64,000 bases of DNA from Patescibacteria group bacterium UBA5194 (lineage in GTDB: Bacteria > Patescibacteriota > Gracilibacteria > BD1-5 > UBA6164): contig DHWA01000013.1 of assembly GCA_002412935.1 (NCBI GenBank), forward strand, positions 6,954 to 70,953. The letters are read 5' to 3'. The stretch's first letter is position 1. Each line of letters opens with the position of its first letter. A program made the position numbers and the translations under genes. Shown here piece by piece: positions 13,116-59,812 of this stretch. The notes beneath the pieces are model-generated. The model ran no database searches. It saw only the letters and a program-made list of their open reading frames with translations, and was not told the origin of the DNA.

Positions 13116-15437
13116 ATGCCCTACTCAGAATCAGATACAAGAGCAAAATATATAGACCCTCAACTTAAAAATAGTAACTGGGAAGAAATAAGTATTATAA
13201 GAGAATACTATTTTACTGACTGAAGAAAAGCACTTTGATGAAAAAGATGAAAAAGAAAATTTGCTGATTATATACTGACTTTCAAATGAGTAAAACTTGC
13301 AATCATAGAAGCTAAAAAAGAAGAATTAGACCCAACAGAATGACTAGAACAAGTTAAAGAATACTGTAAAATCCTTAATTTGAGATTTGTTTATTCTACA
13401 AATTGAAAAAAGATTTATGAATTTGATTTAGAAACTTGAAAAGGAGATTTTGTAGATAAGTACCCTGCTCCAGAAGAACTATATAATAAAGTTTACTCAG
13501 AAAGAAATCTTGCAAAAGAAACTCTTCTAAGTGAACCTTTTTTATTGTCTGATAAAAAACCTAGATATTATCAAGAAATAGCTATAAATAAGACTATGGA
13601 AGCTATTTGAAACTGAGAAAATAGGATTTTACTAACTCTAGCTACTTGAACTTGAAAAACTGTTATAGCTTTTCAAACTGTTTATAAACTTTTCAATGCT
13701 AGATGGTCAAAAGATGGTATTTGAGTAAGAAGACCTAGAATATTATTTTTAGCAGATAGAAATATACTTGTAGACCAAGCAATGAATACTTTTAATCCAC
13801 TTGAAAAAGATATATTAAAAATCAATTGAGTTGAAATCAAAAAAAGATGATGAAAAGTCCCTATGAATGCAAATATTTTCTTTGCTATTTATCAAGCTTT
13901 GGTTTGATGAGTAGATGAAGAAAATCCAGATGAAGTAATTGAAGCATACTATAACAGATATCCAAAAGACTTTTTTGATATGATAATTATAGATGAATGT
14001 CATAGAGGCTGAGCTAGAGAAGATTGAAACTGGTCAGAAATATTAAAATACTTTGATAGTGCAATTCATCTATGACTTACAGCAACACCAAAAAGAGATG
14101 ACAATATAGATACATATAGATATTTTTGAAAACCTATTTATGAATACAGTTTAAAAGCTTGAATAGATGATTGATTTTTAACACCTTTTAAAATAAAAAG
14201 AATCAAGTTAAATATAGATGAACTAGTTTTAAATACTTGAGACCAGATAATAGAATGAACAGCTAAAAAAGATGTTTACTATACAAAAGATATGGAAAGA
14301 GAGATTATAATAGATGAAAGGTCTGATTTAATAGCTCAAACTATTTTACAACAAATCAATAAGATGGATAAAACCATAGTATTTTGTGTAGATCAAAGCC
14401 ATGCACTTAGAATAAGAGATAGTATAAATAAATATAAAACAGTTAAAGACTCTGATTATTGTGTAAGAGTTACAAGTAATGAATGAGAGATATGAAGAAC
14501 TTATTTAGAAAGATTTCAAGATAATGATAAAGATATACCAGTTATTCTTACAAGTTCACAAATGTTAACAACTTGAGTAGATGCCTTAAATGTAAGAAAT
14601 ATAGTACTTGTAAGGAATATTTGAAGCATAGTTGAGTATAAACAAATTATTTGAAGATGAACTCGTATATTTGACTGAAAAGATTATTTTACTATTCTTG
14701 ATTTTGTATGAGCTACAAATGATTTCAAAGATGAAGTTTGGGATTGATGACCAGAAGATGATGATAATTGTCATTCTGAACTTGTTTCAGAATCATCAAA
14801 ATGTAAAAATACTAATTATGAATCTGAAATAAATTCGCAGTGACAAGAAAAAGAAAAAAGATTATATGTTAAATTATGAGATAGTAGAGAAGTAAAAGTA
14901 ATAGATATAGAAACTAGATACCTTGACCCAATTACTTGAAAACACTTGAGTTCAGAAGACTTTTTAAAGAAGATAATTTGAGATTTACCAACTTTTTACA
15001 AAGATGAACATCAATTAAGAGAATTATGGAGTAATCCAGAAACTAGAGATGAATTATTGTATAAATTATCTCAAATATGACTTGATACAGAGCAATTAGA
15101 TGACTTAAAGAGAATATTTGAAGCTGAGGACTCAGATATATTTGATGTACTTGCTCACTTGTCTTTTGATAGTGATATAAAGTACAGGTCTGAAAGGTCT
15201 ATTTATTGAGAAGAAATAGTTGATAATTACGAAAGTATTAAAGCTCGTGAATTTTTAGAATTTTTACTTACTTTGTATGTGAAAAATTGAATTTTAGAGT
15301 TTAGAAAGGATAAATTAGCAAGTAAAATAGCTTTGTTTAATAAATGACAATCAAGAGAGATAGCAAGTGAATTTGGTTGAATTGAAGAGCTTAAAAATGC
15401 TTATTATGAATTGCAAAGGAGTTTATATGTTAAGTAA
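13116..15437 (+). CDS. hsdR: type I restriction enzyme R subunit
   Basis: 773 aa. N-terminal nuclease region, helicase motif I LATGTGKT, motif II DECHRG, TATP, QMLTTGVD, and an EcoEI-type C-terminal region. Confidence 0.9.
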
Positions 15438-16259: not shown

Positions 16260-16358
16260 AATGACAATCAAGAGAGATAGCAAGTGAATTTGGTTGAATT
16301 GAAGAGCTTAAAAATGCTTATTATGAGTTGCAAAGGAGTTTATATGTTAAGTAAATAA
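16260..16358 (+). repeat. 99-bp direct repeat, copy 2 (orphan duplicate of the hsdR 3' end)
   Basis: One mismatch against 15343-15441. Not preceded by an hsdR reading frame. Confidence 0.85.
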
Positions 16359-16366
16359 GATAAAGT

Positions 16367-17074
16367 ATGATTGAAAATAAAAATATTTATAACATTTATC
16401 TTGATGAAAGCAGTATTGATAATCCTAAAAATCATTTTATGGTAATAGGATGAATTTTTATGCAAAGAAATTTAAGAGATGAAATAAAAAATAAAATAAA
16501 AGATTTAAGAAAAAAACATGATTTTTATCCAGAATTAAAATGGACAAAATTAAACAAAAAAAATATCCCCTTTGCTAAAGACATAATAGATTTATTTTTT
16601 AGTTATTCAAAAGATGATTTACAATTTCATTGTATAGTTGTTGATAAGACATTAGTTGCTTACGATGTTTATCATTCTGAAGATAAAGAATTAGCATTTT
16701 ACAAGTTTATTTATCAATTACTACAAAATAAATTTAAAAATGACGGCATATATTACTTATTTTTAGATTACAAGCAAAATAGTGATAAAAATAGACTAAA
16801 AGAATTAGAAAAATTTTTATCAATTATAGCTGAAAAAAAATATCATAATACAGAAATAAAACATATTCAATCATATTGTTCAAAAGAAGTACAACTTATA
16901 CAATTAGCAGATTTTTTTACATGAGCAGTATGATACATAAAAAATTGATTATGAGTTTCTGAAGCTAAAAAAGAAATTGTTAATTATATTGCAGAAAAAT
17001 TAAACAAACAAAATTTAGATTTTAAATCTAAGAGAGAAGAAAAAAAATTTAATATCTTTCAAATTAATTTATAA
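16367..17074 (+). CDS. DUF3800 family protein (paralog B)
   Basis: 235 aa. IYLDESS motif near the N-terminus and LIQLADFFTGAV near the C-terminus. Contains the longest track ORF, 16460-16924. Confidence 0.7.
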
Positions 17075-17083
17075 AATGAAAAT

Positions 17084-17545
17084 ATGCTAGAAACTACTCC
17101 GTGATTACTTATAAAATGAGAAGAAATTCATTATCTAGAAAAGTTTAAAGATATTTTTAAGGATGATAATAAAATTATACTTCCAGAGAAGAACAATAAG
17201 CCTGTATTAATTTTTACTAATAAAGAAACTTCAATTTATCATATATGGAGATGATGATGATATGCCTGACTGAAAGAAGATGAATTTAATTTTAATGATC
17301 CACAATTTTATAGAAGAGCCCAAAGAATATTATGGATTAAATACTTATTAGAAAATCCTCAAATAAGACATATTTATAGAGATAAAAATAATTGATACTT
17401 ATGTTTTGTTTCGAATGAACTTGAATATAGTGTTGTTATAAAAGAAGTTAAAACTAGTTTTATGCTTATTACTGCATACCATACATATAATACATATTGA
17501 TACATGAGTAATGAAAAAAGATTTGAAAGAGTTTATTCAATATAA
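17084..17545 (+). CDS. hypothetical protein (153 aa), defense-island context
   Basis: Code-25 ORF starting 10 nt after DUF3800-B. I recognise no motif. Confidence 0.45.
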
Positions 17546-17577
17546 AAGAGGTTGATGAATGTCCTTCACAACCTCTT
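17546..17577 (+). terminator. stem-loop after the 17084-17545 gene
   Basis: 9-bp stem AAGAGGTTG / CAACCTCTT begins right after the stop. No clear T-run, so termination is uncertain. Confidence 0.35.
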
Positions 17578-17737
17578 AAAACAGAGTACTGGGAGAATAT
17601 CTTGCGATATATACTATGAAGTATACTCCCTTATGTAATTAACAGTATACTCTAATTATCCATTATTACAAATATGCCTTCATTAGGGCACTTAAGTAAG
17701 TAAAAATATAAACAAAATAAATATAAAAAGAGCTTAA

Positions 17738-17762
17738 TTGTACAAAAAATTTGTACAAAAAA
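17738..17762 (+). promoter_or_regulatory. tandem TTGTACAAAAAA x2 (palindromic TGTACA cores), possible operator
   Basis: Two exact 12-mers with 13-nt spacing, about 48 nt upstream of the HEPN gene ATG. Confidence 0.3.
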
Positions 17763-17809
17763 TAGATATTTTGGCTTTAAATAAGCAATACTAGTATTAA
17801 TTAATTGAT

Positions 17810-18601
17810 ATGGATAAACAAACTCAAATGAAAGTTTGATATAGAAAAGAAATTTGCGATAAACATGATTGGAGAATCAAACATATATGAAATTTGGAAT
17901 CAGAGCTCGAAAAAGTACCTGGAAATGATAAAACATTTGATTGGGAAGTATGAAGTATTTTTGTTGCATCAGAACAATTTATTTTCGATAGAAAAAGGAT
18001 TGGTTTAACAAAACCAGAGATGACAGCAGTTTATATCAATATATCAAATAATCATTTTCAAGAATCAAGAAAAATGTTATTTTGAATCAAAAAAGATAAT
18101 ACTTGATTCTATTATTTTGAATGAAATTGATTTGATTTATTAGAAAATATAATAGTTTCAACAGTTTTTGCAGTTTCTGCATTAGAAGTATTTTTTAACC
18201 AATTTTTAATTAATAGTAATGATAATGATATACTAGTAACTACACTTAATAAGGAATGAAAAAAAATATGATTATTAAAAAAAGATTTAGAATGGTTATG
18301 AATTGAAGAAAAAATATTAGTCATTTTGCCTTTAATCTTTAAAACACAAAATAGTGATATGCAAAAAATATCATCAAAATTAAAACAACTTAATAAATTA
18401 AGAAACAGAATAATTCATCTTAAAAGTATAGATATAAAAAATACTACAGATATAAAAACCCCATCAACAATTCGGAAACAATTATTTGACCAAACTAAAG
18501 ATAATCCTGCTTTTATATCTAAAGAAATCATAAAATTTTTTTATGATCAATCTAAAAATGAATATCCTAGATGGCTTAGATTATTACCTTTTAAAAAATA
18601 A
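17810..18601 (+). CDS. HEPN-motif protein (263 aa)
   Basis: Code-25 ORF. R-x4-H motif RNRIIH at 18401-18418 sits in the context LNKLRNRIIHLK. The stop overlaps the ATG of the RT gene (TAATG). Confidence 0.55.
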
Positions 18602-20787
18602 TGAATATAAACACTGAAATAACTCTAAATGATATAAGAGAAATATTATTAAAATATAGTTTTGAGAATAATGAAAAATATTATTATTATTCAAGAAAAA
18701 ACAATATCTGAAACTTAATGTATGATCATTTCTTTAAGAGATTATACCACATTTTTTCTGATGTTTCATTAACAGATGATGATGAATGAGTCAAAGAGTT
18801 CATAAAAGCTATTAAATATTGTAATACTGATTATTTGTATGATATATTTGATGTAAAAGCTAATTTAAACTTCTCTGAAAGAAATTATAGGATTACAAAT
18901 TTTTATAATGTAATTCTATATGAAATCTATGTAAATAAAATTTTTAAACAATTAGCATATCTATCACATAAAAATAATTTAACAAATTATTTGATATTAG
19001 ATAAATATTTCTGATATTTTTCTAGTGTAAACTATTCTATAGATTCAGAAAATAATATATCATCATTAGATTACCAACATTATGATGTAAATTGGATATT
19101 ATTTGAAGAGAAAAAGAAAGAACTTTTGAAAGGTAATAACGAATATATTGAAACTGATATAAAATGATTTTATGATAATATAAATCATGAAATTTTGATT
19201 GAAAAATTAAAATATATTTTTCATAAGTATTGAAATGAAAATATTGATAATTTTTTATATATATTTTCTAACATATTATACAAAGTAAACTGATATAAAA
19301 AATCTTGAATTCCTCAGTGAGTTATTGCATCAGATATAATTGCTAATCTTTTTATTTGGTTAATATTATTTAATGATAAAGATTTATATGATTTTAAACA
19401 AGAAAATTGATTTTATAGTTTATATTGATTAAAATGTATAAATTATAATGATGATTTTATTTTTTGTGGTAATAATTTAGATACTATTTTTAATAAAGAA
19501 ATTAAAAAAATATTTAAAAACAATAGTTTAACTTTGAGCTTAGAAAAAACCACTTGAATATTAGATTCTTTTAGTTATAAATTTTATGATGAAATAGATT
19601 ATAATAAAATTATTAGTAATGATAAGATTGAAATTACAAAATTAAAAAATTTATTTATAACTGAATTAGAAAAAAATATAGATAAAATAGATATAAAATT
19701 ATTGAAAAGAAATTTTAAATGGATTCATAATATTAAAAGTGCAAAACCAACTGTAAAAAAATCATTTGTGAAATGAATATTTAAAATATTATTTGAAGAT
19801 ATTGATTGAAAAAAGAAATATGAAAAAATAAAAAAAATTTATCTTTTACTTGTTATATCACCAAGCAATTTTGTATATTTAATAATTATATTAGAGGAAT
19901 TTTTTCAAGAGAAGTATAATAAATCTTTTGAAAAATTATTGCTTCAAAAAATATTTATTCATTATAATTACTATGTTACAGATTCATTATTAGTTAAATT
20001 TTATAGTGACTTAAACAACTCTTACCATAATCTAGGCTACAAAGAACTAAAATCATTTTTATTTAATTTAATAAATAAAAATAATAATAAAGCTATTAAA
20101 TCTTTTTTAGATAATGATAAGAAACCTTTAGATTTAATAATTAAAGATAACGGTTTGATATGATTACATAACCTAATATATGGAAATAATGATATTAAAC
20201 GATTTAAAGAAAATATATTGTGAATAAAACTATATTCATTATTCTGAATAAACATTAACTATGATAACATTAACTCATTTTTTGAGAGAAATTGAAATGA
20301 CAAAATTATAAAAAATGTTAAATTAAAACTAAATCATATCATTGATGATTTGATAATAATAAAAAACATATCTCCAAATTTTTACTTAAAAAATCCTTCT
20401 TTTATTGCTGACCTATATTCGGTTTTAAACATATTATTAACTTTATTATTTTTTATTATTGATAATAAAATTATTGAAGTAAAGATAGATTGAGGAAATG
20501 AGGAAGGTTTTATTCAAACAAAAAAAGATAAGATTGAAAACAAATTTATTAAAGTTTGATTAAGAAAATATATAAATGACTTTGATACTAATCATATAAG
20601 TATGTTATATTATATTGCTAAAAAAAGAGCAATTTATAACCATAAAGAGATAGATATTGATAAAGATATAAATTTTTTAGTTTATAAAAAAAACAATGAT
20701 TTAAATACTTTTTATAATTGAATTTCAAGTCTGATAATCTATATTTTAAATTTAATAGATAAAGAAGTATTAAGTAATAAAATTTAA
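18601..20787 (+). CDS. AbiA-like reverse transcriptase with C-terminal HEPN motif
   Basis: 728 aa. RT motifs TDIKGFYDNINHE and GIPQGVIASDIIANLFI. Catalytic YNDD at 19444-19455. C-terminal R-x4-H (KRAIYNH) at 20626-20643. Confidence 0.75.
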
Positions 20788-20848
20788 AATAATCTTTACT
20801 TTAAGCCAAAAATCAATATACTACTAAAGATAAATAATAATATAAAAT

Positions 20849-22048
20849 ATGCCCTACCCAATAAAAAAGCTTTGAGAAATAACAATATTAATTACAAAAT
20901 GATCTACTCCAACTTCTTATTGATTTAAATATTTGAATAGTTGAGTAAGTTTTATTAAAATTGAAAATATCTCAAATTGAAAAATTATAAAAGATTCAAT
21001 TCATTGTTTTATTTCGGAAGAAGCAAATATATTTCAAAAAAGAAGTATTTTAAATGAGTGAGATTTATTAATATCAATAGCTTGAACAATATGAACTGTA
21101 GCAGTTGTTAATAATAATATTCTTCCAGCAAATACAAATCAAGCCTTAGCAATTGTAAGATGATATAATCAGTATACAACTTCAAATTATTTACAATTTG
21201 TATTATCATCAAATCTTTCTAAAGATTTTAAAGATAAAGCAAGATGAGGAGCTTTACAGAATATATCATTAGAAGATATAAAAAACATTCCAATCCCCCT
21301 ACCCCCACTCCCAACCCAAAAACTCATAGTTCAAAAACTAGATGAATCATTTGAAAAAATAGATAAAAGTATAGAAATCACAAAAAAAAATTTAGAAAAT
21401 CTAGAACAACTAAATAAAAGTGTTTTAGAAGAAGTTTTTAAAAAGTGAGAATATGATATTAAAACTATTGATGATATTTCTCATAATGTTCAATATTGAT
21501 ATACTTGAAAAACAATTGAAAAGTGAAATTATAAGTATTTAAGAATTACAGATATACAAGATAACAACATAATTTGGGCTAATGTTCCTTATGTTGATAT
21601 CACTGAAAAAGAATCTAATAAATATAAATTAAACAAGTGAGATATTGTTTTTGCAAGAACATGAGCAACTGTTTGAAAGTCTTGTTTAATAGATGAAGTT
21701 TGAGTTGGTAATGTATTTGCTTCCTATTTGATAAGAATTATTTGAAAACAAAATCTAGTGAATCCAAATTTTATGCAATATTTCTTTTATAGTAAAAATT
21801 ATTGGGAGCAAATATGACTTGATGTTGTTTGAGCTGCTCAACCAAATTTTAATTGAACAAAACTAAAGCAAGTAAAAATCCCACTTCCACCACTTCCAAA
21901 ACAAAAAGAAATAGTTACATATTTAGATCAAATATTTGAAAAAAATAAATCTCTAAAAAGTGAGTATGAAAGAAAATTAAAAGATTTAGAAGAACTAAAA
22001 CAGAGCTTGTTGAAAGAAGCCTTTGAATGAAAATTGGTAAAAGAATAA
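20849..22048 (+). CDS. hsdS: type I restriction-modification specificity subunit
   Basis: 399 aa. Two target-recognition halves, each followed by conserved IP(I/L)PLPPLP(T/K)Q and coiled-coil spacers. Confidence 0.85.
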
Positions 22049-22105
22049 TTTGTAGAAATATATATTTTGTATATAATACGAATATATTATAATTTATAAA
22101 ACAAT

Positions 22106-23116
22106 ATGAAAGAATTAAATATAAAAGAAAATATTACTGAATTTTTACTTTATAAAACTTCAAATGGAGATATAAAAGTAGAAGTTTTTTTAAAAGATGA
22201 AAATATTTGGTTATCTCAAAAGAAAATTTGAGAATTATTTAATATAGATAGAAGTGTAATAACAAAACATATTAAAAATATTTTTGAAACAGAAGAATTA
22301 GAGAAAAATTCAGTATGTGCAAATTTTGCACATACTGCTGAAGATTGAAAAATTTATAACACAAATTTTTATAATCTTGATGCTATTATTGCAATTTGAT
22401 ATAGAGTAAACAGTAAGAGAGCAACTGATTTTCGTATTTGGTCAAATAAAATCTTAAAAGAATATATAATAAAATGATACTCAATGGATGTGGAAAAATT
22501 AAAAAATCCAAATAATCCATTTTGAAAAGATTACTTTGAAGAACAATTAGAAATAATCAGAGATATCAGAAGTAGTGAAAGAAGATTTTATCAAAAAATT
22601 ACTGATATTTATTCTAGTTGTTCTATTGATTATGATAAAAACTCAGAAATTACAAAAACATTTTTTGCAACGGTACAAAATAAATTGCATTGGGCAATAG
22701 TCTGAAAAACTGCTGCTGAAATAGTTTATTCAAGAGCTAATCATAAAGAAAATAAAATGTGATTAACATCTTGGAAAAATTCTCCAAATTGAAAAATAAG
22801 AAAAATAGATGTAAGTATTGCAAAAAATTATTTAGATGAAAAAGAATTAAAACCATTAAATAGAATTGTAACAATGTATCTTGATTATGCTGAACTACAA
22901 GCTGAAAATCATAAAGCAATGACAATGTTAGATTGGGTATGAAAATTAGATAGTTTTTTAAAATTTAATGAAAAAAATATTTTAGAAAATTCTTGAAAAG
23001 TTACAACTGAAATAGCTAAAAGTTTTGCTGAAAATGAATTTGAAAAATATAAACTAATTCAAGATAAAACATATTTATCAGACTTTGATAATGAAATTAA
23101 AAAACTAAATTTATAA
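22106..23116 (+). CDS. RhuM-family protein
   Basis: 336 aa. Segments NLDAIIAIGYRVNSKRATDFRIW and ERRFYQKITDIY are typical of RhuM proteins, which commonly sit inside type I R-M operons. Confidence 0.7.
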
Positions 23117-23132
23117 ACTTATTTAAACACTT

Positions 23133-24557
23133 ATGAAACAAAAAATAGCAAGAATAAAAGATGTACTTCGTACTGATTCATGAATTTCTTGAGCAATGTG
23201 ATATACTGAACAAGTTTCGTGGATACTTTTTTTGAAGTTCCTTGACGATTATGAACAAAGAGAGTCTGATAATGCTTTGCTTGATTGAAAAGAATATAAG
23301 TATTTACTAGAAGAAAAATACAGATGGAGTATTTGGATAAAACAACAAAAATGATATATTGCATGAGATGATTTAAAAGACTTTGTTAATAACAACCTTT
23401 TTCCTTATTTGAAGTCTTTTAGAAATATAACTGATGATTATCATTCTATAAAGTATAAAATTTGAGAAATTTTCTTTTTTATCAATAACAAAATAGAAGA
23501 TTGAAACAATATTAAAGAAGTAGTTGATTTAGTTGATTGACTAAGCTTTCAAAAACAAGAAGATTTATTTGACCTTTCAAATGTCTATGAAGATTTATTG
23601 AAAGATATGTGAAATGCTTGATGAAATAATTGAGAATTTTATACTCCTAGAAGTATCATAAAAATAATGGTAGATAGTGTAGATCCAAAAATATGACAAA
23701 CTATATATGACCCTGCAGCTTGAAGTTGTTGATTTTTGATTGAAGCATTTAATCATATAAATACACAAGAAAAAACAGATAAACAATTAGAGTTTTTACA
23801 TAATCAAACTTTATTCTGAAATGAAAAAACCCCTCTAGCTTATGTAATGTGAGTTATGAATATGATACTTCACAGTATCAGTAATCCAAATATTAAAAAA
23901 ACAGATACATTAGCTCAAAATATTAAATCATTTCAAGAGAAAGATAGATATGATGTTATTCTTGCAAATCCTCCTTTTGGTTGAAAAATAAAATCTCAAG
24001 TACAAATAAACTTTCCAATTAGAACAAATGCAACAGAAATGCTTTTTTTACAACATATATTGAAGAGTGTAAAATTATGAGGTAAAGTATGAATCATTGT
24101 ACCTGAATGAGTTTTATTTAATTCTTGAAGTGCTTTTTGAGAAGTTAAGAAATGGCTTTTAGAAGATTTTAATCTTCATAGCATAGTAAGTCTTCCTGCT
24201 TGAGTATTCCTACCTTATGCCTGAGTTAAAACAAATGTAATTTTCTTTAATAGAGAATGAAAAACAAGTGATATATGGTATTATGAAATAGATTTAGGAA
24301 GAACTCTTACAAAAAATAAGCCTATAACTTATGATGATATAAAACATATTCCAGCGATGCTCCACAAAAGAGAAGTTTGACCAAATTCTTGGATTGTAAA
24401 AATAGAAGACATAAAAGATTATGACCTATCAGCAAAAAATCCAAACAAAGCAAAAGAAAAAGCACTCAGAACACCAAAAGAGATATTTGAAGAATTAAAA
24501 GAAAACGATAAAGTTATAAATAGTTTACTTGGAGAATTAAATGAGATTTTGAAATAA
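23133..24557 (+). CDS. hsdM: type I restriction-modification DNA methyltransferase subunit
   Basis: 474 aa. HsdM N-terminal domain, AdoMet motif DPAAGSCGF, and catalytic NPPFG with the Gly encoded by TGA. Confidence 0.9.
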
Positions 24558-31261: not shown

Positions 31262-31338
31262 TGGCAAGGACCGTAGGAATTGCACCTACGCCTACTGGCT
31301 TCGGAGGCCGGTCACTCTTCTAATTAAGCTAGGTCCTT
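31262..31338 (-). tRNA. tRNA-Arg(CCG)-like gene with atypical features
   Basis: The reverse complement folds with a 7-bp acceptor AAGGACC/GGTCCTT, a D-arm GCTT..GAGT, anticodon loop CTCCGAA (anticodon CCG), a 5-nt variable loop, T-stem GTAGG/CCTAC, discriminator G and encoded CCA. Atypical points: T-loop TGCAATT (G at position 55), a C-A mismatch, and an extra pair in the anticodon stem. Confidence 0.5.
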
Positions 31339-31450: not shown

Positions 31451-33274
31451 ATGCAAAAACAACAAATAATCGACGAAATAATAAACTTATCTTTAGAAAG
31501 AAACATCACCACTAAAGATGAATTTCATAAAACCCAAAATGAAGTCTACAAAAAATACAAACTTCCAGAGTGAATTACTGGAATTGATATCCTTGAAAGA
31601 TACAACGAACATGTAAAAAATAAAACAGTTAGAGATAGTAATGATTTCAGAAAAGTTTTGAGAAAGAGATGAGTAAGAAGCCTTTCTGGAGTAACTGTTA
31701 TTTCCCTACTTACAGAGTTTTTTGGTTGTCCTGGAAAATGTATCTATTGTCCAACATTTGAATGATTACCAAAATCATATATCCCAAATGAGCCTGCAGT
31801 TCAAAGAGCAAAACTAAATAAATTTGATCCAATTATGCAGATTCATAATAGACTTAGATCACTTGAAATCACAGGACATAAAATAGAAAAAAATGATGTG
31901 AGAATCATAGGTGGGACTTGGAGTTGTTATCCGAAAAAATATCAAGAAGATTTTATAAAAGGTATCTATGATGCTTTCAATACTTTTGATGAGATGAAAG
32001 AACAAATAGATGAAAATGTAATTTCAGGTGATAAGTTTTCAAGCTTTACAATGAAAGAATGATACAATTTAAAATTATCAAAAGACTTAGAAGAAGCAAA
32101 GAAAATCAATGAAACAACAAAATATAGAGTCATCTGAATTGCAATTGAAACTCGCCCAGATTGGGTAAATATAGAAGAAATTGCTAGACTAAGAAGATAT
32201 GGAGTTACAAGAGTTGAAATAGGTTATCAGACAACTATTGATGAAATAAATATATTAAATAAAAGATGACATACAAACAAAGAAAGTATTCTTGCTACTA
32301 AATTACTCAAGGATGCATGATTTAAAGTTGTTGCTCATATAATGCCCAATTTACTTTGAAGTACTCCTGAGCTTGATAAAAAAGCATTTAAAGAAGTATT
32401 TGAGAACCCCGACTTTAGACCAGATGAGTTAAAAATCTATCCTATGGTCGTTACAGATAAATCAGAATTAACAGAAATATGGAAAAAATGATGATTTAAA
32501 GCATACGATGATGAGACACTTATAAATTTGATGTGTGATTTAGAAGAAATGGTTCCAGAATATGTAAGGATAAATAGAACTTACAGAGACATCCCAGCTT
32601 CACAAATACTTCACGGTTCAACTCTCAGTAATCTAAGACAAATAGTTGAAAATAGAATGAAAGATAAATGAATAAAATTACAAGACATAAGAAATAGAGA
32701 AATAAAAGACAAAATCAATGACCCATCTAGAGCAGTTTTACACACTATAAAATATGAAGCAAGTGGTTGAACAGAATATTTTATGACTTTTGAAGATAGT
32801 GAAGATAGAACTATTTTTAGTTTACTTAGGTTGAGATTGCCAGGAAAAAGTTTTTCTGTCATCCTCGGGCTTGACCCGGGGATCTCTAGCAAGGAAAAAC
32901 TAGAAAAAGAAAGTAATGGCACAGATATTTTAAAAAGCACTTTATCAAAAGATGAATTTATAAATTCTAGTGAGTTCATAGATTCCGGATCAAGTCCGGA
33001 ATGACAAAACTGCGAATCTATTCTCCCAGAACTATCTTGAGCAGCACTAATCAGAGAAATCCACACATTTTGAGATCAATTAAGTATCTGAGAAGTTGGA
33101 AGTACTTTTTGACAACATATAGGTTTTGGAAAACGCCTTATTGCTGAATCTGAAAAAATAGCAATAGAAAATTGATTCAAAAAAATGGCTGTTATAGCCT
33201 GAGTTTGAGTAAGAGAATATTATAAAAAGAGATGATATGAGCTAGAATGAGAGTATATGGTAAAAAGTTTGTAA
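31451..33274 (+). CDS. Elp3-like radical-SAM / GNAT acetyltransferase-domain protein, carrying a 50-codon repeat-derived insertion
   Basis: 607 aa. CPGKCIYCP radical-SAM cluster motif. C-terminal GNAT region (HIGFGKRLI). Joins track ORFs 31835-32062 and 32783-33004. Confidence 0.85.
32857..33006. mobile_element. TGTCAT-family element inserted in frame in the elp3-like CDS (150 bp = 50 codons)
   Basis: Left arm is TGTCATCCTCGGGCTTGACCCGGGGATCT. Right arm is AGATTCCGGATCAAGTCCGGAATGACA. Translated as VILGLDPGISS...DSGSSPEGQ. Confidence 0.75.
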
Positions 33275-43354: not shown

Positions 43355-43459
43355 TGTCATTCCCTAGAAATAGGGAATCTTCCTTATATTGCATCTAATA
43401 TTATAATCATAGACATTTTTAATACAAGGTAGATTATCGGGTCAAGCCCGATAATGACA
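43355..43459. mobile_element. TGTCAT-family element with non-identical (hybrid) arms
   Basis: Left arm is TGTCATTCCCTAGAAATAGGGAATCTTCC. Right arm is TAGATTATCGGGTCAAGCCCGATAATGACA. Intergenic, between yidC and rnpA. Confidence 0.7.
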
Positions 43460-43465
43460 AACTTT

Positions 43466-43915
43466 TTATCATTTTATGTTCATCATTTTTTTCAATAAAA
43501 ATTTCACATCATTATCAAATCAATTTATACTCTCTAAATTATTTTTTTCAAGTTTAGTTTGTTTTTTTAGAACAAAAATTAGGTCATAGTGAATTGATAG
43601 TTTAGAGTTGTCAGTTTGGAATTGTCATTGCGAGGTACGAAGCAATCCATTCTCTATATTGTTTCAAGTTTCCTGGATTGCTTTGCTATCGCTCGCAATG
43701 ACATATGATGTTACCATATCATAAAATCTTCTTCTAAAAAAGTTTCTTTTTACGCTTGAATCTACATTTTTTCATGAAATTATAATTGCAAATCTATTAT
43801 GTTTCAATTTATTTTTATTATAATTCAAAACTAATCAATATGAAAAAAAAGGTTTTCAATATTTCAAAACCTTTTTTACTTCATTTTCCTTCAATCTATA
43901 ATCTTTAGAAATCAT
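43466..43915 (-). CDS. rnpA: RNase P protein component, carrying a 27-codon repeat-derived insertion
   Basis: 149 aa. KNVDSSVKRNFFRRRFYD matches the RNR-motif region. Lies 14 nt downstream of rpmH. Confidence 0.75.
43623..43703. mobile_element. TGTCAT-family element inserted in frame in rnpA (81 bp = 27 codons)
   Basis: TGTCATTGCGAGGTACGAAGCAATCC...GGATTGCTTTGCTATCGCTCGCAATGACA. Read on the minus strand as VIASDSKAIQETGNNIENGLLRTSQGQ. Confidence 0.75.
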
Positions 43916-47246: not shown

Positions 47247-47349
47247 TGTCATACTCGTGCTCACGTGCCCCTTGTGGGTATGACACGAGTATCCAGTGAA
47301 CTAAATATTGCTTGTACACTAGATTATCGGGTCAAGCCCGATAATGACA
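47247..47349. mobile_element. TGTCAT-family element with hybrid arms
   Basis: Left arm is TGTCATACTCGTG...CACGAGTATCC. Right arm is TAGATTATCGGGTCAAGCCCGATAATGACA. Lies in the ftsA/ftsE divergent intergenic region. Confidence 0.7.
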
Positions 47350-52762: not shown

Positions 52763-53989
52763 ATGAAAATCGCAATACTTCACGAAATGCTTATAAAACT
52801 TGGTTGAGCTGAAAAAGTTGTAGAAAAAATTGCTTCTATTTTTCCTGATGCTCCGATTTTTACTCTGATTTACGATGAAGAAAAAGTATGAAAAATATTT
52901 CCAAAAGATAAAGTAAAAGTAGCTTCATCTACTCAGAGAATTTATAATATTACAAAAAATCAAAGATTTTGTCTTCCTTTTATGCCTAGAGCTGTTGAAA
53001 GTCTTGATTTTTCAGATTATGATGTAGTTATTTGTTCTTCTTCTGGATTTGCACATTGAGCAATTACCAAACCAGAAACTAAATTTATCGTTTACTATCA
53101 TTCTCCTGCAAGATATCTATGGGATTGGACCAATGAATACAAAAAAGATATTGGTTTTGATAAGTGATTAAAATGATATATATTAAATAAATTATTTTTG
53201 AGTCTTAGAATGTGGGATGTAATTGCATCATCTAGAGTGGATATAAATCTAGCAAATAGTAAAAATTCTGCTTCTAGAGTACAAAAATATTACAGAAAAA
53301 CTTGTGAAATACTTTATCCTCCTATCGAAACAAAGAGATTTAAGAAAGAAATCAATAAAGTATGAGTTTTGGAAACTATACTGTCATCCTGAACGAATGT
53401 GAAGGATCCCTTAAGCAAGGTAATCACTAAAAAATCAAGTTCAAGGGATTCTTCGTTACTCTCAGAATGACAAACAGTAAATAATATAACATATTACATA
53501 ATTATATCAGCACTAACCGAATTTAAAAAAATAGAAATAGCAATAGAATGATTCAACAAAATGCCTGACAAAAATCTGGTTATAATTTGAGATTGAAATT
53601 ATAGAGAAACTTTGAAAAATAAAGTAAATTGAAATAATATAATTTTTACATGAGCTAGATACTCTGATGAACTTGTAGAGTTAGTTCAATGAAGTCTAGG
53701 GCTCATATTTCCATGAGAAGAAGATTTCTGAATAGTTCCAATTGAAGCAATGGCAGCAGGAAAACCTATCTTTGCATATGCTTGAGGATGATTACTTGAA
53801 ACTGTAATTGATAACAAAACTTGAAGCTTTTTCCAAGATAAGACTTGATATGATTTTGTCCCAAAATTTGCAGAATTTGATCAAAAAGTTAACTCATGAT
53901 TTTTTGACAAAAAATTTATAACAAAACATGCCCTAAAATTTGATGAATCTTTATTTGAGAAAAGGATTAAAGAGATTGTAAATTGATAA
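52763..53989 (+). CDS. GT4-family glycosyltransferase carrying a roughly 30-codon repeat-derived insertion
   Basis: 408 aa. EEDFGIVPIEAMAAGKPIFAY is the GT-B C-domain motif. The frame is uninterrupted through the inserted element. Confidence 0.8.
53382..53472. mobile_element. TGTCAT-family element inserted in frame in the glycosyltransferase CDS
   Basis: TGTCATCCTGAACGAATGTGAAGGATCCCTTAAGC...CAAGGGATTCTTCGTTACTCTCAGAATGACA. Translated as LSSGTNVKDPLSKVITKKSSSRDSSLLSEGQ. Confidence 0.75.
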
Positions 53990-53998: not shown

Positions 53999-54132
53999 TG
54001 TCATTCCCGAGAAATCGGGAATCTTCATTATATTGTAGCTAAGAAATAGTGAATTAATATTATTTTTAGATACTACTATTTATCTATTATTGTTATTATA
54101 CAAGGTAGATTCCCTTCTTCAAGGGAATGACA
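53999..54132. mobile_element. complete TGTCAT-family element, CCCG-hairpin arm type
   Basis: TGTCATTCCCGAGAAATCGGGAATCTTC...GGTAGATTCCCTTCTTCAAGGGAATGACA. Confidence 0.8.
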
Positions 54133-54181
54133 TACTTTTCTATTTTTATAATGCATTTCACGATGTGTATCATAGAGATTT

Positions 54182-54288
54182 TTAAGGGGGTAACTTCGCC
54201 GTAATACGAAGCACAATAAAAATAGTCTCATCAGCGAAGATTTACCCTCTTAAATTCTTTTTGCTACTTTTTGGAATCAAAAAGTAAG
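54182..54288. mobile_element. short relative of the 7946-8264 element
   Basis: TTAAGGGGGTAACTTCGCC...GCGAAGATTTACCCTCTTAA palindrome, followed by ATTCTTTTTGCTACTTTTTGGAATCAAAAAGTAAG, which resembles the right TIR of the 7946-8264 element. Confidence 0.5.
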
Positions 54289-54310
54289 AGATAAGTAAAT
54301 ACAATATAGT

Positions 54311-54386
54311 AAATGGATTGCTTCGAAAAAACTCGCAATGACAAAAAGTAAATACAAGGAAGATTCCCGCCTTCGCGGGAATGACA
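54311..54386. repeat. two solo right arms of TGTCAT-family elements
   Basis: AAATGGATTGCTTCGAAAAAACTCGCAATGACA (54311-54343) and GGAAGATTCCCGCCTTCGCGGGAATGACA (54358-54386). Confidence 0.65.
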
Positions 54387-55613: not shown

Positions 55614-55707
55614 TGTCATTGCGAGTTTTTACGAAGCAATTCAGAAATCATTGATTTAACAATAAAACACTATTTAAGGGATTCTTCGCTAATCGCTCAG
55701 AATGACA
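55614..55707. mobile_element. TGTCAT-family element with arms from two different subtypes
   Basis: Left arm TGTCATTGCGAGTTTTTACGAAGCAAT (GCAA type). Right arm TTAAGGGATTCTTCGCTAATCGCTCAGAATGACA (GGATCCC type). Confidence 0.7.
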
Positions 55708-57865: not shown

Positions 57866-59812
57866 TTATCTATCGTATTTTTTCTTCAAATCTTGTAGAG
57901 TTAATTCAGAAACAGAAGGTCTTCAATGTGGACAAGTTGAACTATATGACAAGACACTGTCATTAAGTAATTTATTCATCTCAAATAGATTTAATTTATT
58001 ACCGAATTTGATTGCTGATCTACAAGCTGTATAAGCACATATTTTATTTCTTACTTCCTCTAAATTCATAGATTTTCAAGTATTAAATTCTCATATATCA
58101 CTAATTATTCACAAAAAAATGTTTTTTATATCTTCTTTTTTAATAAAATTTGGAATAGCACTTAAAAGTACACTTGAAGTAGACAATATTTCAAAATCAA
58201 ATCCCATATCCAAAAAGATTTGTCTATATTGTGTCAATATCGAAATTTCTTTTCCAGTAAGATTTAAATTTTCTTGAATTAAAAGTTGTTGAGATTGTGT
58301 ATCTAGATCTTTTTTTATAAGTTTTTCATAAATTATTCTTTCTGCTAGTGCATGCTGATCAAGGATTATCAATTTATCATCTTTTTCAACAATTATATAA
58401 CTATTAAAAACTTGCCCTACTATTTTTCATAGAGATGTATAATGTAAATCAGAATTTACACCTAAATCACTTCAAGTAAAATCTTTTAAAAAATGTTTTG
58501 TAAACTCAATGGAATCTTTTATTGTATTTTGTGCTGGATTTGTAGATACATCTTTATATGGAGAATATGATTTGAATTTTGTTCCGGAACCTGTGTAATA
58601 TATATTATGTCATTCCCTTGAAGAAGGGAATCTTCATTGTATTGTTTCCTTTTGTCATTCACTATGTTGTCATTGCGATACTGCCAGAGTACAGGGAGTA
58701 CGAAGCAATCCATTCACTATATTGTTTCATGTTTTCTGGATTGCTTCGTTACTCTCGCAATGACAGTTTTCTTCTCAATTATCACTTTCATCTATATTAA
58801 CCAAACTACTATTTTCCAACTTACTCAAAATAGCATTATAAAAAGCTCTGTATATTTCTTGTTCTCTTGCAAACCTGATTTCTTGTTTTCTTGGATGTAC
58901 ATTTACATCGATTTCTTCGGGATTTATTTCTAAATTTAATATATATCCTGGAAAATTATTGTGTGGGATGAACCTACGATATGCTTCATTTATTGCTCTA
59001 TAAATAAGAGGTGAACTTATAATTCTCCCATTTACAAATATTGCTTGTCTATTTTTATTTAGAAAATGAATCTTTGGAGTTGAGATAAATCAATTTATAT
59101 TAAGTCATGAAAAAGAAAAATCTATACCTAACAAATTATTATAAAATTCTTCTCAATATATATTATAGATTCTTGTTTTTAAATCTTCATTTTCTTTGTA
59201 CTTAAAAATTATTTTTCAATTATTTACAAATTCAAATCAGATTTGTGGATGAGCAAGTGCAATATTATTTAGAAAATCACTTATGTGACTATATTCTGTT
59301 TTTTCTTTTTTAAGGTAGTTAATTCTTGCTGGAGTATTAAAAAATAATTCTTTAACAATTATTTTAGTTCATATGTTTATACTTTCTTCTTTTATATCTA
59401 ACTTTTCTCATCATATAACTTCTAAAGAGTATCATCCTTGTCATCCTGAACTTGATTCAGGATCTCTTGTTTTTGAAATTATCTTAAATTTTGAAACAGA
59501 TGATATAGACGCCAAAGCTTCTCACCTAAATCAAAAAGTCATAACTTTATGTAAATCTTCTAGATTTTTTATTTTTGAAGTAGTATGTTTTTCTGTAAGT
59601 ATAATTAAATCTTCTTTTTCTATTCCTACTCAATTATCACTTATAATTATCTCATCTATTCAACCTGAAGTGATTTCAACCTTTATACTAGTGCTTCAAG
59701 CATCTATACTATTTTCTACAAGTTCTTTAACTACTGAAACTGGTCTTTCAACTACTTCTCAAGCTGATATCTGATTTATAAGTATTTTATCTAGTTTAAT
59801 AATTTTTGACAT
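57866..59812 (-). CDS. mutL: DNA mismatch repair protein MutL with repeat-derived insertions
   Basis: 648 aa. Frame checked codon by codon. GHKL motifs VVKELVENSIDAG, DNGVGI, GFRGEAL. C-terminal domain ILDQHALAERIIYE and CPHGRP. Confidence 0.85.
58608..58765. mobile_element. composite of one solo arm, one arm fragment and one complete TGTCAT-family element inside the mutL linker
   Basis: TGTCAT starts at 58608, 58653 and 58668. The complete element 58668-58765 has arms TGTCATTGCGATACTGCC...ACGAAGCAATCC and GGATTGCTTCGTTACTCTCGCAATGACA. The whole stretch is translated in frame. Confidence 0.75.
59439..59466. repeat. solo TGTCAT-family arm inside the mutL N-terminal domain
   Basis: TGTCATCCTGAACTTGATTCAGGATCTC, read on the minus strand as RDPESSSGGQ. 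Confidence 0.5.

What the first reader, a model, noticed from the sequence alone, without database searches (positions are those of the whole stretch)
32857..33006. A 150-bp TGTCAT element is translated as 50 extra residues inside the Elp3-like enzyme
Seen in sequence:
- The element, with arms TGTCATCCTCGGGCTTGACCCGGGGATCT and AGATTCCGGATCAAGTCCGGAATGACA, lies within the C-terminal GNAT region.
- It sits between ...LLRLRLPGKSFS and NCESILPELSGAALIREIHTFG...
- Its length is exactly 50 codons with no TAA or TAG, and the downstream conserved sequence stays in frame.

Established knowledge: in-frame insertion of palindromic repeats into protein genes is documented for Rickettsia palindromic elements.

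Inference: the same phenomenon occurs here in a CPR genome. I am not aware of it having been described there.
Basis: partly seen in the sequence, partly recalled or inferred. Interest (0 to 1): 0.65.

Follow-up and report, generated by a model that had tools for sequence, protein, structure and literature searches.

The report
Hairpin-repeat insertion translated inside Elp3
A 150-base pair of inverted hairpin repeats, of the same widespread repeat family as the Rickettsia palindromic elements and the Neisseria dRS3/NTS repeats, sits in frame in a loop of an apparently working tRNA-modifying enzyme of a bacterium that reads TGA as glycine; this extends a known phenomenon to a new lineage.

Summary
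Window 32857-33006 is TGTCAT-hairpin-ATCT, then 94 bp, then AGAT-hairpin-ATGACA. It lies in frame, with no TAA or TAG, in a 607-aa Elp3 gene (31451-33274) read with code 25 (TGA = Gly).

- **Orthologs.** Most have a 9-11-residue loop here. The 95%-identical ortholog P0002 has no element and keeps only TGACA.
- **Gene status.** The gene is under purifying selection (dN/dS 0.10-0.21). AlphaFold models of two orthologs with related inserts give a disordered loop. A metatranscriptome contig of a close relative runs through its insert.
- **What it is.** It is a head-to-head dimer of (C/T)GTC-tagged REP hairpins, also called Ssn-related motifs. This family includes Neisseria dRS3/NTS and Rickettsia RPE-4/-6. 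Its partner gene is a about 95-aa GIY-YIG single-strand nuclease (Ssn). I found arm-ssn-arm units across phyla, including on code-25 contigs with an almost identical arm.
- **Other copies.** The window holds at least six more in-frame copies, in HsdR, MutL (two), RnpA and a glycosyltransferase.

It is a new member of a known kind, not a new phenomenon.

The parts
31451..33274 (+). Host gene: Elp3-type radical SAM/GNAT tRNA U34 modification enzyme, 607 aa when TGA is read as Gly
   Evidence: Translation with table 25. Pfam Radical_SAM and Radical_SAM_C. PDB Elp3 chains at E = 1e-105. dN/dS 0.10-0.21 against three orthologs.
32857..33006 (+). The 150-bp element: a head-to-head dimer of two tagged hairpin repeats around a 94-bp spacer, read in frame as VILGLD...SSPEGQ
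   Evidence: As single-stranded DNA it folds at -21.9 kcal/mol, z = -4.1, with each arm forming its own hairpin.
32857..32885 (+). Left arm: tag TGTCAT, stem CCTCGGG, loop CTTGA, stem CCCGGGG, tail ATCT
   Evidence: Matches the published degenerate Ssn-related-motif pattern (32857-32887), with 0 matches in 30 simulated windows. Depth in the source metagenome is about 1465 against 68 on the flanks.
32886..32979 (+). Spacer, A+T-rich and essentially single-copy, encoding a Lys/Glu/Ser-rich stretch
   Evidence: Depth 94-107 against 68 on the flanks in run X1. No other copy in the window. It does not align with the spacer at the same site in L001.
32980..33006 (-). Right arm (read on the minus strand: TGTCAT TCCGGA CTTGA TCCGGA ATCT)
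   Evidence: Identical 27/27 at the same Elp3 site in L001 and L005, although dS is 0.34 and 0.85. It is 25/27 identical to the arms next to an ssn gene on the code-25 contig L144, and the two differences form one compensatory stem pair. Depth is about 1346 against 67.
33002..33004 (+). In-frame TGA inside the ATGACA tag, read as Gly
   Evidence: With table 11 the ORF stops here. With table 25 it continues into the conserved C-terminus.
14769..14845 (+). Family copy in frame in the type I restriction subunit HsdR (NCHSELVSESSKCKNTNYESEINSQGQ)
   Evidence: Pfam places it between Helicase_C (410-518) and EcoEI_R_C (614-771). Its first 40 nt are 95% identical to the left part of the Elp3 insert of L005.
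43355..43459 (.). Intergenic 105-bp dimer
43623..43703 (-). 81-bp dimer in frame in the RNase P protein gene (VIASDSKAIQETGNNIENGLLRTSQGQ)
   Evidence: Pfam Ribonuclease_P matches only residues 4-67 (profile positions 3-67 of 109).
47247..47349 (.). Intergenic dimer; the stem of its left arm (TGTCAT ACTCGTG ... CACGAGT ATC) resembles the published NTSvar
   Evidence: NTSvar is CGTCATACTCGGGNNNNNCCCGAGTATC (PMC11893778).
52370..52509 (.). Intergenic 140-bp dimer with canonical NTS-like arms
   Evidence: The arm 52482-52509 matches the SRM pattern.
53382..53472 (+). 91-bp dimer in frame in a GT4 glycosyltransferase (LSSGTNVKDP...SSLLSEGQ)
   Evidence: It lies between Glyco_transf_4 (14-192) and Glycos_transf_1 (244-362).
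53999..54386 (.). Intergenic cluster: a 134-bp dimer (53999-54132) followed by further arms ending at 54343 and 54386
   Evidence: The arm 54359-54386 matches the SRM pattern.
55614..55642 (+). Solitary intergenic arm of the TGCGAG...GAAGCAAT type
58608..58765 (-). 158-bp composite of several arms in frame in the MutL linker (CHCESNEAIQ...FPSSREGH)
59439..59467 (-). Solitary arm in frame in a loop of the MutL ATPase domain (RDPESSSGGQ)
   Evidence: Aligned to E. coli MutL, this loop is 6 residues longer.

Best explanation
The 150-bp segment is a non-autonomous copy of a tagged hairpin repeat. This family has been called CGTC-tagged REP, Ssn-related motif (SRM), dRS3/NTS in Neisseria, and RPE-4/-6 in Rickettsia. 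Two arms lie head to head, each being tag (C/T)GTCAT, a 6-9 bp stem-loop and ATC, around a 94-bp spacer.

It lies in the connection between the strand LLRLRLP and the helix and strand LLPEL...ALIREIHTFG of the Elp3 acetyltransferase domain. It is transcribed and translated as about 50 extra, probably disordered, residues. It persists because this loop tolerates length changes; the enzyme remains under purifying selection.

- **Shown:** the anatomy, the family resemblance, the indel against orthologs, selection on the gene, and the reading-through of sister copies.
- **Inferred:**
  - The arms act as single-stranded DNA hairpins.
  - They are multiplied or exchanged through the small GIY-YIG nuclease Ssn, whose gene is found between such arms, including in code-25 bacteria.
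  - The site evolves by turnover anchored on the arms, not by point mutation.
  - The insert has no function of its own in Elp3.
For: **Anatomy and repetition**
- Thirteen canonical arms lie in 64 kb, out of 72 TGTCAT hexamers.
- The published SRM pattern hits the window 3 times, including the left arm, against 0 in simulations.
- Arm depth is about 20 times flank depth in the source metagenome, and hundreds of times in two groundwater metagenomes. The spacer is near single-copy.

**Family**
- TGTCATTCCC-N8-GGGAATC occurs in more than 120 genome loci from most bacterial phyla, including a Rickettsia and a Tisiphia endosymbiont.
- Stems are kept by compensatory changes: C-G 128, T-A 17, unpaired 4.
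- The literature equates this family with dRS3/NTS and RPE-4/-6.

**Partner gene**
- All five close relatives of a 92-96-aa GIY-YIG ORF found in those loci have such an arm within about 150 nt upstream, and four also have one downstream.
- 77 of 92 metagenome loci picked by an arm plus a YYVYI motif carry the gene. Five of them are intact only in code 25, with TGA at conserved Gly residues.
- L144 has arms 25/27 identical to the Elp3 right arm.

**Insertion, not native sequence**
-.

**Functional gene**
-.

**Loop**
- pLDDT is below 50 over 468-491 of P0006 and about 28 over 467-513 of P0001, between confident secondary-structure elements. The models match Elp3 structures with a target-normalised TM-score of 0.78-0.91.

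**Read through**
- Sister copies inside HsdR (77 bp), the glycosyltransferase (91 bp) and MutL (158 and 29 bp) are not multiples of three. The downstream domains are in frame only if those copies are translated.
- An RNA-run contig joins the P0001-type spacer, the right arm and downstream Elp3.
Against: - There is no peptide evidence.
- The RNA evidence is one assembled contig from a relative, and DNA carry-over cannot be excluded.
Low pLDDT is compatible with a surface loop but does not prove one.
- The insert ends only 17 residues before the Glu/His pair that corresponds to DmcElp3 E386/H388, so an effect on activity is possible.
- No ssn gene lies in the window or in the four related Gracilibacteria-type loci searched.
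- Mobility of these repeats by Ssn has not been demonstrated by anyone; the 2025 paper only raises it.
- The right arm misses the published SRM pattern by one base.
Confidence: 0.8

Rival explanations
1. The segment is removed before the protein is made, as an intron-like RNA, by translational bypass, or as an intein.
For: It has inverted ends and folds stably as RNA (-42 kcal/mol, z = -4.3). Its length is an exact multiple of three.
Against: - No Rfam family reaches threshold anywhere near it.
- Fifty residues without intein motifs is far too short for an intein.
- The frame is kept open, which removal would not require.
- Sister copies of 77, 91, 158 and 29 bp inside other genes would break the frame if cut out at the tags.
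- An RNA-run contig retains the related insert.
Confidence: 0.03
2. The gene is a decaying pseudogene, and the open frame is luck.
For: An A+T-rich genome with only two stop codons leaves about 6% of such shuffled inserts open. 20% of all 150-nt frames in the window are open.
Against: - dN/dS is 0.10-0.21 across 557-601 codons.
- Columns invariant across 40 sequences include the radical-SAM cysteines and the R-E-x-H-T-F motif.
- Orthologs with inserts at the same site are also intact.
Confidence: 0.04
3. It is an ordinary MITE moved by a DDE transposase that recognises the terminal inverted repeats as double-stranded DNA.
For: The ends are inverted (TGTCAT...ATGACA), the size is 50-160 bp, and there are many copies.
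Against: - No target-site duplication appears in 49 paired elements from many genomes.
- The arm stems vary freely but stay paired. This points to recognition of a folded single strand.
- Solitary arms and same-orientation arrays exist.
- The only gene seen between such arms is a GIY-YIG nuclease.
- SsnA binds NTS only as single-stranded DNA (PMC11893778).
Confidence: 0.07
4. History of the site, version A: one ancient insertion in the ancestor of the window, P0001, P0002, P0007 and P0006. It later decayed to the bare tag in P0002 and P0007. The right arm was held unchanged by selection or by gene conversion from other copies.

Version B: repeated insertion beside a pre-existing TGACA.
For: **For A:** window and L001 share the same left junction, AAAAGTT(T/C)TTCT(G/A)TCAT. 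The tag-derived Gly-Gln is absent from the sister orthologs P0003 and P0010 and from other, more distant orthologs.

**For B:**
- The right arm is 27/27 identical at dS 0.85. That is about 2e-4 even under protein-like constraint (my estimate).
- The left arms and spacers at the same site are unrelated.
- Two lineages independently retain exactly (A)TGACA.
Against: Each version needs something unproven. A needs strong constraint on a 27-nt arm inside a disordered loop, plus two deletions that stop at the tag. B needs nucleotide-precise re-insertion by a mechanism nobody has shown. The present data cannot separate them.
Confidence: 0.5

Closest known systems
Rickettsia palindromic elements (RPE), in particular RPE-4 and RPE-6 of R. 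conorii
   Same: - Short palindromic repeats inserted in frame in functional protein genes as well as between genes, adding 20-50 residues at tolerated sites.
- Di Nocera et al. 2013 (PMC3733652) state that R. conorii RPEs end in CGTC, and that their CGTC-1 and CGTC-4 families are RPE-6 and RPE-4.
- The same two arm types as in this window occur as 98-130-bp pairs in a Rickettsia endosymbiont chromosome, L100.
   Different: - The host is a code-25 candidate-phyla-radiation bacterium, not an alphaproteobacterium.
- The tag starts with T in 12 of 13 arms.
- The tag is read in the frame A|TGA|CA, which is a stop in Rickettsia.
- I did not compare with RPE consensus sequences directly, because none was available as text. 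Similarity to the longer RPE-1 is not tested.
Neisseria dRS3 / NTS repeats and the Ssn-related motifs with their GIY-YIG single-strand nuclease SsnA (Chenal et al. 2025, PMC11893778)
   Same: - The arm plan is CGTCAT, then a hairpin ATTCCC-N8-GGGAAT, then C. Window arms such as TGTCATTCCCGCGAAGGCGGGAATCT differ from NTS only at the first base and in the tail.
- One window arm has the NTSvar stem.
- The architecture arm-ssn-arm was recovered here independently, including in code-25 contigs.
   Different: - In N. meningitidis only 2% of NTS lie inside genes. Here about half of the elements do (7 in-frame sites in 64 kb).
- No ssn gene lies in this window.
- The role shown in Neisseria (limiting integration of transforming DNA) is not tested here.
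- Patescibacteria are not mentioned in that paper.
GTAG-tagged REP / REPIN elements with RAYT (IS200/IS605-type tyrosine transposases)
   Same: Tagged hairpins, mostly as inverted dimers, with no target duplication. They are thought to act as single-stranded DNA. A single-copy gene flanked by the repeats is the presumed mobilising enzyme. Intragenic copies have been reported.
   Different: The tag is different (GTAG) and the enzyme family is different (HUH/Y1, not GIY-YIG). No RAYT was seen next to these arms.
Neisseria intergenic mosaic elements (variable segments bounded by dRS3)
   Same: A conserved arm bounds unrelated interiors at one locus: the right arm is identical, while the left arm and spacer differ in window, L001 and L005. 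This is my own recollection of that literature, used as a lead only.
   Different: Here the mosaic lies inside a coding sequence and stays in frame.

Membership tests
Ssn-related motif (SRM) / NTS repeats | Match to the published degenerate pattern HGTCWY N(0-2) YYVSBRH N(0-5) WNVSBRG N(0-2) RNCYNB | tested here: met
   Left arm 32857-32887 matches, as do 52482-52509 and 54359-54386. There are 0 matches in 30 first-order Markov simulations of the window. The right arm fails at one position (A where the pattern asks G).
Ssn-related motif (SRM) / NTS repeats | An oriented tag 5' of a hairpin whose pairing is maintained, and a C just after the palindrome | tested here: met
   All 13 canonical window arms are TGTCAT, a perfect stem of at least 6 bp, then ATC. 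Compensatory changes appear in 149 arms from other genomes.
Ssn-related motif (SRM) / NTS repeats | Physical association with a single-domain GIY-YIG ssn gene | tested here: inconclusive
   Met in other genomes and in code-25 metagenomic contigs with near-identical arms. No ssn gene lies in the window or in loci L001-L005. L126-L128 were not searched. The rest of this genome was not available.
Ssn-related motif (SRM) / NTS repeats | Bound and cut by the cognate Ssn as single-stranded DNA only | not testable with these tools
   This is biochemistry. It is known only for a few Ssn/NTS pairs (PMC11893778).
CGTC-tagged REP superfamily (Di Nocera et al. 2013) | A 20-40-bp stem-loop with an unpaired CGTC tetranucleotide at one end | tested here: inconclusive
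   The tag is TGTC in 12 of 13 window arms and CGTC in the L001 arm at the same site. The size and the unpaired tag fit, and the SRM pattern allows T at this position.
CGTC-tagged REP superfamily (Di Nocera et al. 2013) | Many copies, mostly as head-to-head dimers, with some inside genes | tested here: met
   The window holds eight dimers or composites plus solitary arms. Five of them lie within ORFs.
Rickettsia palindromic elements | In-frame insertion in functional protein genes at sites that tolerate it | tested here: met
   - Elp3.
- HsdR linker, glycosyltransferase linker, MutL linker and loop, and RnpA.
Rickettsia palindromic elements | Sequence similarity to a named RPE consensus | not tested
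The link rests on statements in PMC3733652 and on like arms in the Rickettsia locus L100.
MITE of a DDE transposon | Target-site duplication flanking the terminal inverted repeats | tested here: not met
   No direct repeats flank 49 paired elements. The flanks show only a weak pyrimidine bias 5' of the tag.
Self-splicing intron or other described RNA family | Match to a curated RNA family | tested here: not met
   The Rfam gathering-threshold scan of the whole window found only one tRNA.
Elp3 (host gene) | Radical SAM domain plus a C-terminal GNAT domain, homologous to solved Elp3 structures | tested here: met

The most novel reading that the evidence does not exclude
In bacteria that read TGA as glycine, the tag of these repeats (ATGACA) can be translated in the frame A|TGA|CA. 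This frame yields Ser/Gly/Pro/Glu/Gln-rich, loop-friendly peptides.

The reassignment may therefore have turned coding sequence into a permissive sink for the repeats. It may even be a target-rich one: TGA-CAx is a common Gly-Gln codon pair, and 'empty' sites keep TGACA.

The arms might then serve as anchors for swapping the DNA between them. That would create fast-evolving disordered loops in housekeeping proteins such as Elp3, MutL and RnpA.
Probability: 0.15. Interest if true: 0.6.

Novelty: new member of a known kind. Interest (0 to 1): 0.42.

Why it matters
**Reach of the repeat family.** The tagged-hairpin family behind the Rickettsia palindromic elements and Neisseria dRS3/NTS reaches the candidate phyla radiation. 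There, in a very compact genome, roughly half of the copies are carried inside essential genes and read through.

**Material for the mobility question.** These data bear on whether the recently discovered Ssn single-strand nucleases actually move these repeats:
- filled, remnant and differently filled alleles of one site;
- an arm conserved 27/27 across dS 0.85;
- arm-ssn-arm units in the same kind of organism.

**Annotation warnings.**
- In code-25 genomes read with the standard code, these genes are split at the tag's TGA.
- The repeat-derived peptides (…SGSSPEGQ, CHPELVSGS…, VIPAEAGI…) will seed spurious protein families.

Tried and rejected
- **Structure of the window's own Elp3.** I modelled the orthologs P0006 and P0001 instead.
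- **RNA runs on L001.** The RNA evidence therefore comes only from the contigs laid on the window.
- **Acetyl-CoA blocking loop.** I thought the insert might be this loop. It is not. That loop is DmcElp3 390-406, just downstream, whereas the insert maps to about 373-381.
- **Alignment of the arms.** The MAFFT alignment put arms of different stem and loop lengths out of register. I did not use it for pair counting and counted pairs directly instead.
- **Target-site duplication.** None was found.
- **A frame rule for the tag.** All six in-gene sites of the window read A|TGA|CA. Background TGACA is already 49% in that phase, and an arm in the code-25 contig L204 uses another phase. I report this as an unexplained tendency, not a rule.
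- **Literature.** Searches for palindromic elements in Gracilibacteria or CPR, and for a GIY-YIG link to RPEs, found nothing. The key papers surfaced only when I searched for the DNA string itself and for RPE terms.
- **Full Pfam annotation of the window.** It was prepared but not run. Only ten ORFs near elements were printed, and five were scanned.
Full report
**1. The observation.**
The sequence at 32857-33006 is exactly as described. The left arm is TGTCATCCTCGGGCTTGACCCGGGGATCT, followed by 94 A+T-rich bases, then the right arm AGATTCCGGATCAAGTCCGGAATGACA. Each arm is unique in the window at up to three mismatches and absent from shuffles.

The window has 25% G+C and uses TGA as a sense codon. 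Its 55 long ORFs contain 914 in-frame TGA against 332 GGN codons. The 22 TGA codons of the gene in question align with Gly in 224 of 264 cells of NCBI-annotated orthologs.

Read with table 25, 31451-33274 is one 607-aa ORF. The element begins at the third position of a codon, is 150 nt long, and has no TAA or TAG in the frame used. Its one TGA (33002-33004) lies inside the terminal ATGACA. Only two of its six frames are open, and 5.8% of shuffles are open in the frame used.

**2. The host gene.**
Pfam finds Radical_SAM and Radical_SAM_C. The best PDB matches are Elp3 from Methanocaldococcus infernus and Dehalococcoides mccartyi (E about 1e-105 and 1e-100), followed by eukaryotic Elp3.

In those alignments, query residues 469-532 face only 7-8 residues of the solved proteins. 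The insert lies between the strand ...LLRLRLP and the segment LLPEL...ALIREIHTFG. The Glu and His of that segment correspond to DmcElp3 E386 and H388. It is not the acetyl-CoA blocking loop (Dmc 390-406), which follows immediately downstream (PMC6367351).

**3. Orthologs.**
A protein search returned 2,425 homologs. The 120 best are 62-85% identical, and the named ones are Elp3 of candidate Gracilibacteria-type bacteria.

At this position 63 of the 102 sequences for which the loop could be delimited (the query and 101 of these homologs) have 9-11 residues. The window has 60, the longest of these. Outside the loop, the window is 95.2% identical to P0001 and 94.6% to P0002. A neighbour-joining tree gives (P0002,(P0001,window)), then P0004/P0005, P0007 and P0006.

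DNA at the site:

| Locus (protein) | State of the site |
|---|---|
| Window | AAAAGTTTTTC, then TGTCAT...ATGACA, then AAACTGCGAA |
| L001/L002 (P0001) | Same two junctions and a right arm identical 27/27. The left side holds a degenerate arm plus a different arm (CGTCATTCCTGCGGAGGCAGGAATCT). The spacer does not align. |
| L003/L004 (P0002) | No element; reads AAAAGC-TGACAAAAC, so five bases of the tag remain. |
| L126 (P0007) | Keeps ATGACAAAAT next to an unrelated hairpin repeat (CCCCC...GGGGG). |
| L127 (P0004) | Carries yet another hairpin repeat (CCTCTCC...GGAGAGG). |
| L005 (P0006, 79% identical) | A 77-bp element with a third kind of left arm and the same 27-nt right arm. |

The loop is therefore a repeated landing or survival place for hairpin repeats.

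**4. The gene is alive and the insert is read.**
- dN/dS is 0.18, 0.13 and 0.21 for the window against L001, L003 and L005.
- The element is not an assembly artefact. In the source metagenome the spacer has the same depth as the flanks (about 69 against 67-68). A contig from another sample runs through flank, arm, spacer and arm. Independent assemblies hold the related insert.
- A contig from a metatranscriptome run joins the P0001-type spacer, the right arm and 320 nt of downstream Elp3. The caveat is that DNA can be present in such runs.
- AlphaFold models of the orthologs P0006 (pTM 0.80) and P0001 (pTM 0.76) place the insert in a stretch of pLDDT below 50 (468-491) and about 28 (467-513). 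This stretch lies between a confident strand (455-463) and a helix and strand. The P0001 model superposes on solved Elp3 structures.
- The window's own protein could not be modelled.

**5. What the element is.**
The window holds 13 canonical arms, each of the form TGTCAT, a perfect stem of 6-9 bp, a loop (GAAR or CTTGA/CTTGT) and ATCT, plus variant arms. The stems differ from arm to arm but always pair.

Each arm of the Elp3 element folds on itself. It is therefore a head-to-head dimer of stem-loops, not one long palindrome.

In the source metagenome the arms have about 20 times the depth of the flanks. In two groundwater metagenomes the excess is hundreds-fold. Some contigs there join the two arms directly without the spacer.

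These come from most bacterial phyla and one Nanoarchaeota bin. They include Saccharibacteria, Paceibacteria, Coxiellaceae, Tisiphia and a Rickettsia endosymbiont. In the 149 arms recovered, the two free stem pairs are Watson-Crick in 144 and 145 cases, with 17 and 5 double (compensatory) changes. Many arms form inverted pairs 52-140 bp long, and none shows a target-site duplication.

**6. The partner gene.**
All five close members of a 92-96-aa ORF family found in those loci have such an arm within about 150 nt upstream, and four also have one downstream; one of them is frameshifted. Pfam calls it GIY-YIG.

Searching papers for the DNA string itself led to Chenal et al. 2025 (PMC11893778). 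They define:
- NTS, CGTCATTCCCGCGMAVGCGGGAATCYRG, which contains Neisseria dRS3;
- NTSvar;
- a degenerate Ssn-related motif (SRM).

They show that the GIY-YIG protein SsnA binds NTS only as single-stranded DNA and cuts a few bases upstream. They note that NTS-ssnA-NTS looks like an insertion sequence. They also report that Rickettsia and Wolbachia are SRM-rich and that only 2% of NTS lie inside genes in N. meningitidis.

Di Nocera et al. 2013 (PMC3733652) had classified the same repeats as CGTC-tagged REPs. They equated them with dRS3 and with R. conorii RPE-4 and RPE-6, found them mostly as head-to-head dimers, and listed intragenic copies in several species, many in replication and repair genes. 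They found no transposase.

The published SRM pattern matches the left arm of the Elp3 element and two other window arms, and none in simulations. The right arm misses by one base.

**7. Does this kind of organism have the partner?**
No ssn gene is in the window or in loci L001-L005.

A metagenome scan for an arm followed by a YYVYI-coding motif gave 92 loci, 77 of them with the Ssn ORF. Five low-G+C contigs carry Ssn ORFs that are intact only in code 25. These have one to four TGA codons at conserved glycines, including the Gly of the YIG motif. The contigs as a whole are code 25.

On L144 (23% G+C) the gene is preceded by TGTCATTCCGGCCTTAGAGCCGGAATCT. That first copy is 25/27 identical to the Elp3 right arm, and the two differences form one compensatory pair. 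Code-25 bacteria therefore do carry arm-ssn-arm units of the same arm subfamily. Whether this particular genome does is unknown.

**8. The phenomenon is genome-wide here.**
The window has further in-frame copies:

| Gene | Copy | Position in the protein |
|---|---|---|
| HsdR | 77 bp | Linker between helicase and C-terminal domains |
| RNase P protein | 81 bp | Splits the Pfam match |
| GT4 glycosyltransferase | 91 bp | Interdomain linker |
| MutL | 158-bp composite | Linker |
| MutL | 29-bp solitary arm | Loop of the ATPase domain |

Several of these lengths are not multiples of three, yet the downstream domains are in frame. These copies must therefore be translated, not removed. Intergenic copies have stops in most frames. 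The picture is insertion or gain anywhere, followed by survival only in loops and linkers and only when open.

**9. How it most likely works.**
- **Shown:** a tagged-hairpin dimer of the SRM/CGTC-REP family is present in frame in a length-tolerant loop of a constrained Elp3 gene, in a lineage where the family's nuclease gene exists.
- **Inferred:** the arms act as single-stranded DNA hairpins, and Ssn (or recombination between arms) multiplies and exchanges them.

The site shows turnover anchored on the arm. The right arm is unchanged over dS 0.85, which I estimate at about 2e-4 even under protein-like constraint. Meanwhile the left arm and spacer have been replaced.

Two histories remain open: one old insertion with decay to the tag in P0002 and P0007, or repeated insertion beside a resident TGACA. 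I see no evidence that the insert does anything for Elp3.

**10. Comparison and novelty.**
The element works like an RPE, and on published statements it belongs to the same superfamily as RPE-4/-6 and dRS3/NTS. It is not a DDE-type MITE (no duplication; structure-conserving arms), and it matches no described RNA family. In-frame REP insertions and the Ssn link are both published.

What appears new:
- the lineage (a code-25 candidate-phyla-radiation bacterium; nothing in the held literature);
- the density of coding copies;
- the recurrent use of one Elp3 loop by several repeat families;
- the reading of the tag's TGA as glycine.

All six in-gene sites of the window use that frame. However, background TGACA is already 49% in that phase, and one arm on another code-25 contig differs. 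This remains an unexplained tendency.

**Verdict:** observation confirmed, interpretation supported, a new member of a known kind.

Noticed in passing
window 14769-14845, 43623-43703, 53382-53472, 58608-58765, 59439-59467: Five more copies or fragments of the same repeat family are translated in frame. They lie in HsdR, the RNase P protein, a GT4 glycosyltransferase and MutL (a composite in the linker and a solitary arm in an ATPase-domain loop). Several have lengths that are not multiples of three.
   Followed up: partly
window, all in-gene ATGACA tags (e.g. 33001-33006, 14840-14845, 43623-43628, 53467-53472): In all six in-gene sites of the window the tag is read as A|TGA|CAx (Gly-Gln or Gly-His). 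This frame would be a stop in the standard code. Background TGACA in coding sequence is 49% in that phase, and one arm on the code-25 contig L204 uses another phase. The cause is unknown.
   Followed up: partly
window 32980-33006 versus L001 4125-4151 and L005 5305-5331: The 27-nt right arm is identical in three genomes whose Elp3 genes differ by dS 0.34 and 0.85. The left arm and spacer at the same site are unrelated. This indicates either strong constraint or repeated replacement.
   Followed up: partly
L126 and L127, Elp3 loop (orthologs P0007 and P0004); also P0051, P0077, P0084, P0086, P0090: Other, unrelated G+C-rich hairpin repeats (CCCCC...GGGGG, and CCTCTCC...GGAGAGG giving peptides such as SPLLVGEELRVR and PPNPLLNKEGE) occupy the same Elp3 loop in other lineages. 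Of the 102 loops that could be delimited, 28 have 16 or more residues.
   Followed up: partly
window 47247-47293: One arm has the stem of the Neisseria wadsworthii NTSvar (ACTCG.G...C.CGAGT ATC), but with a 23-nt loop that itself contains a small hairpin.
   Followed up: no
window 53999-54386 and 58608-58765: These are compound clusters in which arms of different subfamilies are nested or abutted. The subfamilies are TCCCxx-GAAR-xxGGGA and TGCGAG...GAAGCAATCC / GGATTGCTTCG...CTCGCA. They resemble the mosaic repeat clusters described in Neisseria and Wolbachia.
   Followed up: no
L144 575-790: Downstream of a code-25 ssn gene, four right-arm copies stand in the same orientation at a regular spacing of about 73 bp (about 47 nt between copies). 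This is an array, not a dimer.
   Followed up: no
window 7845-7984 and 8141-8294; L003 9692-9921: A different inverted repeat (69-nt arms, 75% complementary, 241 nt apart) in the window matches, at 78-89%, a stretch just upstream of Elp3 in the relative L003. It is probably another mobile repeat family.
   Followed up: no
window Elp3 residues about 178-205 (about 31982-32065): A second extra segment of about 27 residues appears relative to archaeal and Dehalococcoides Elp3. It is shared by all the Gracilibacteria-type orthologs, so it is a lineage feature and not a recent insertion.
   Followed up: no
window 32611-33066, minus strand: A 151-aa antisense ORF spans the element under the standard code. 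It is most likely spurious, since the minus-strand frame of the element happens to be open.
   Followed up: no
window 31262-31338 (minus strand); 13116-24557: tRNA-Arg(CCG) lies just upstream of Elp3. A type I restriction-modification region (HsdR here; methylase, specificity-subunit and Fic genes by synteny with L003 and L005) is rearranged between the relatives.
   Followed up: no
database proteins P0001, P0002, P0004 and many 'lgn' entries: Many database translations of these genes carry W where G is expected, because TGA was read with code 4. This would mislead alignments and structure predictions of code-25 proteins.
   Followed up: no
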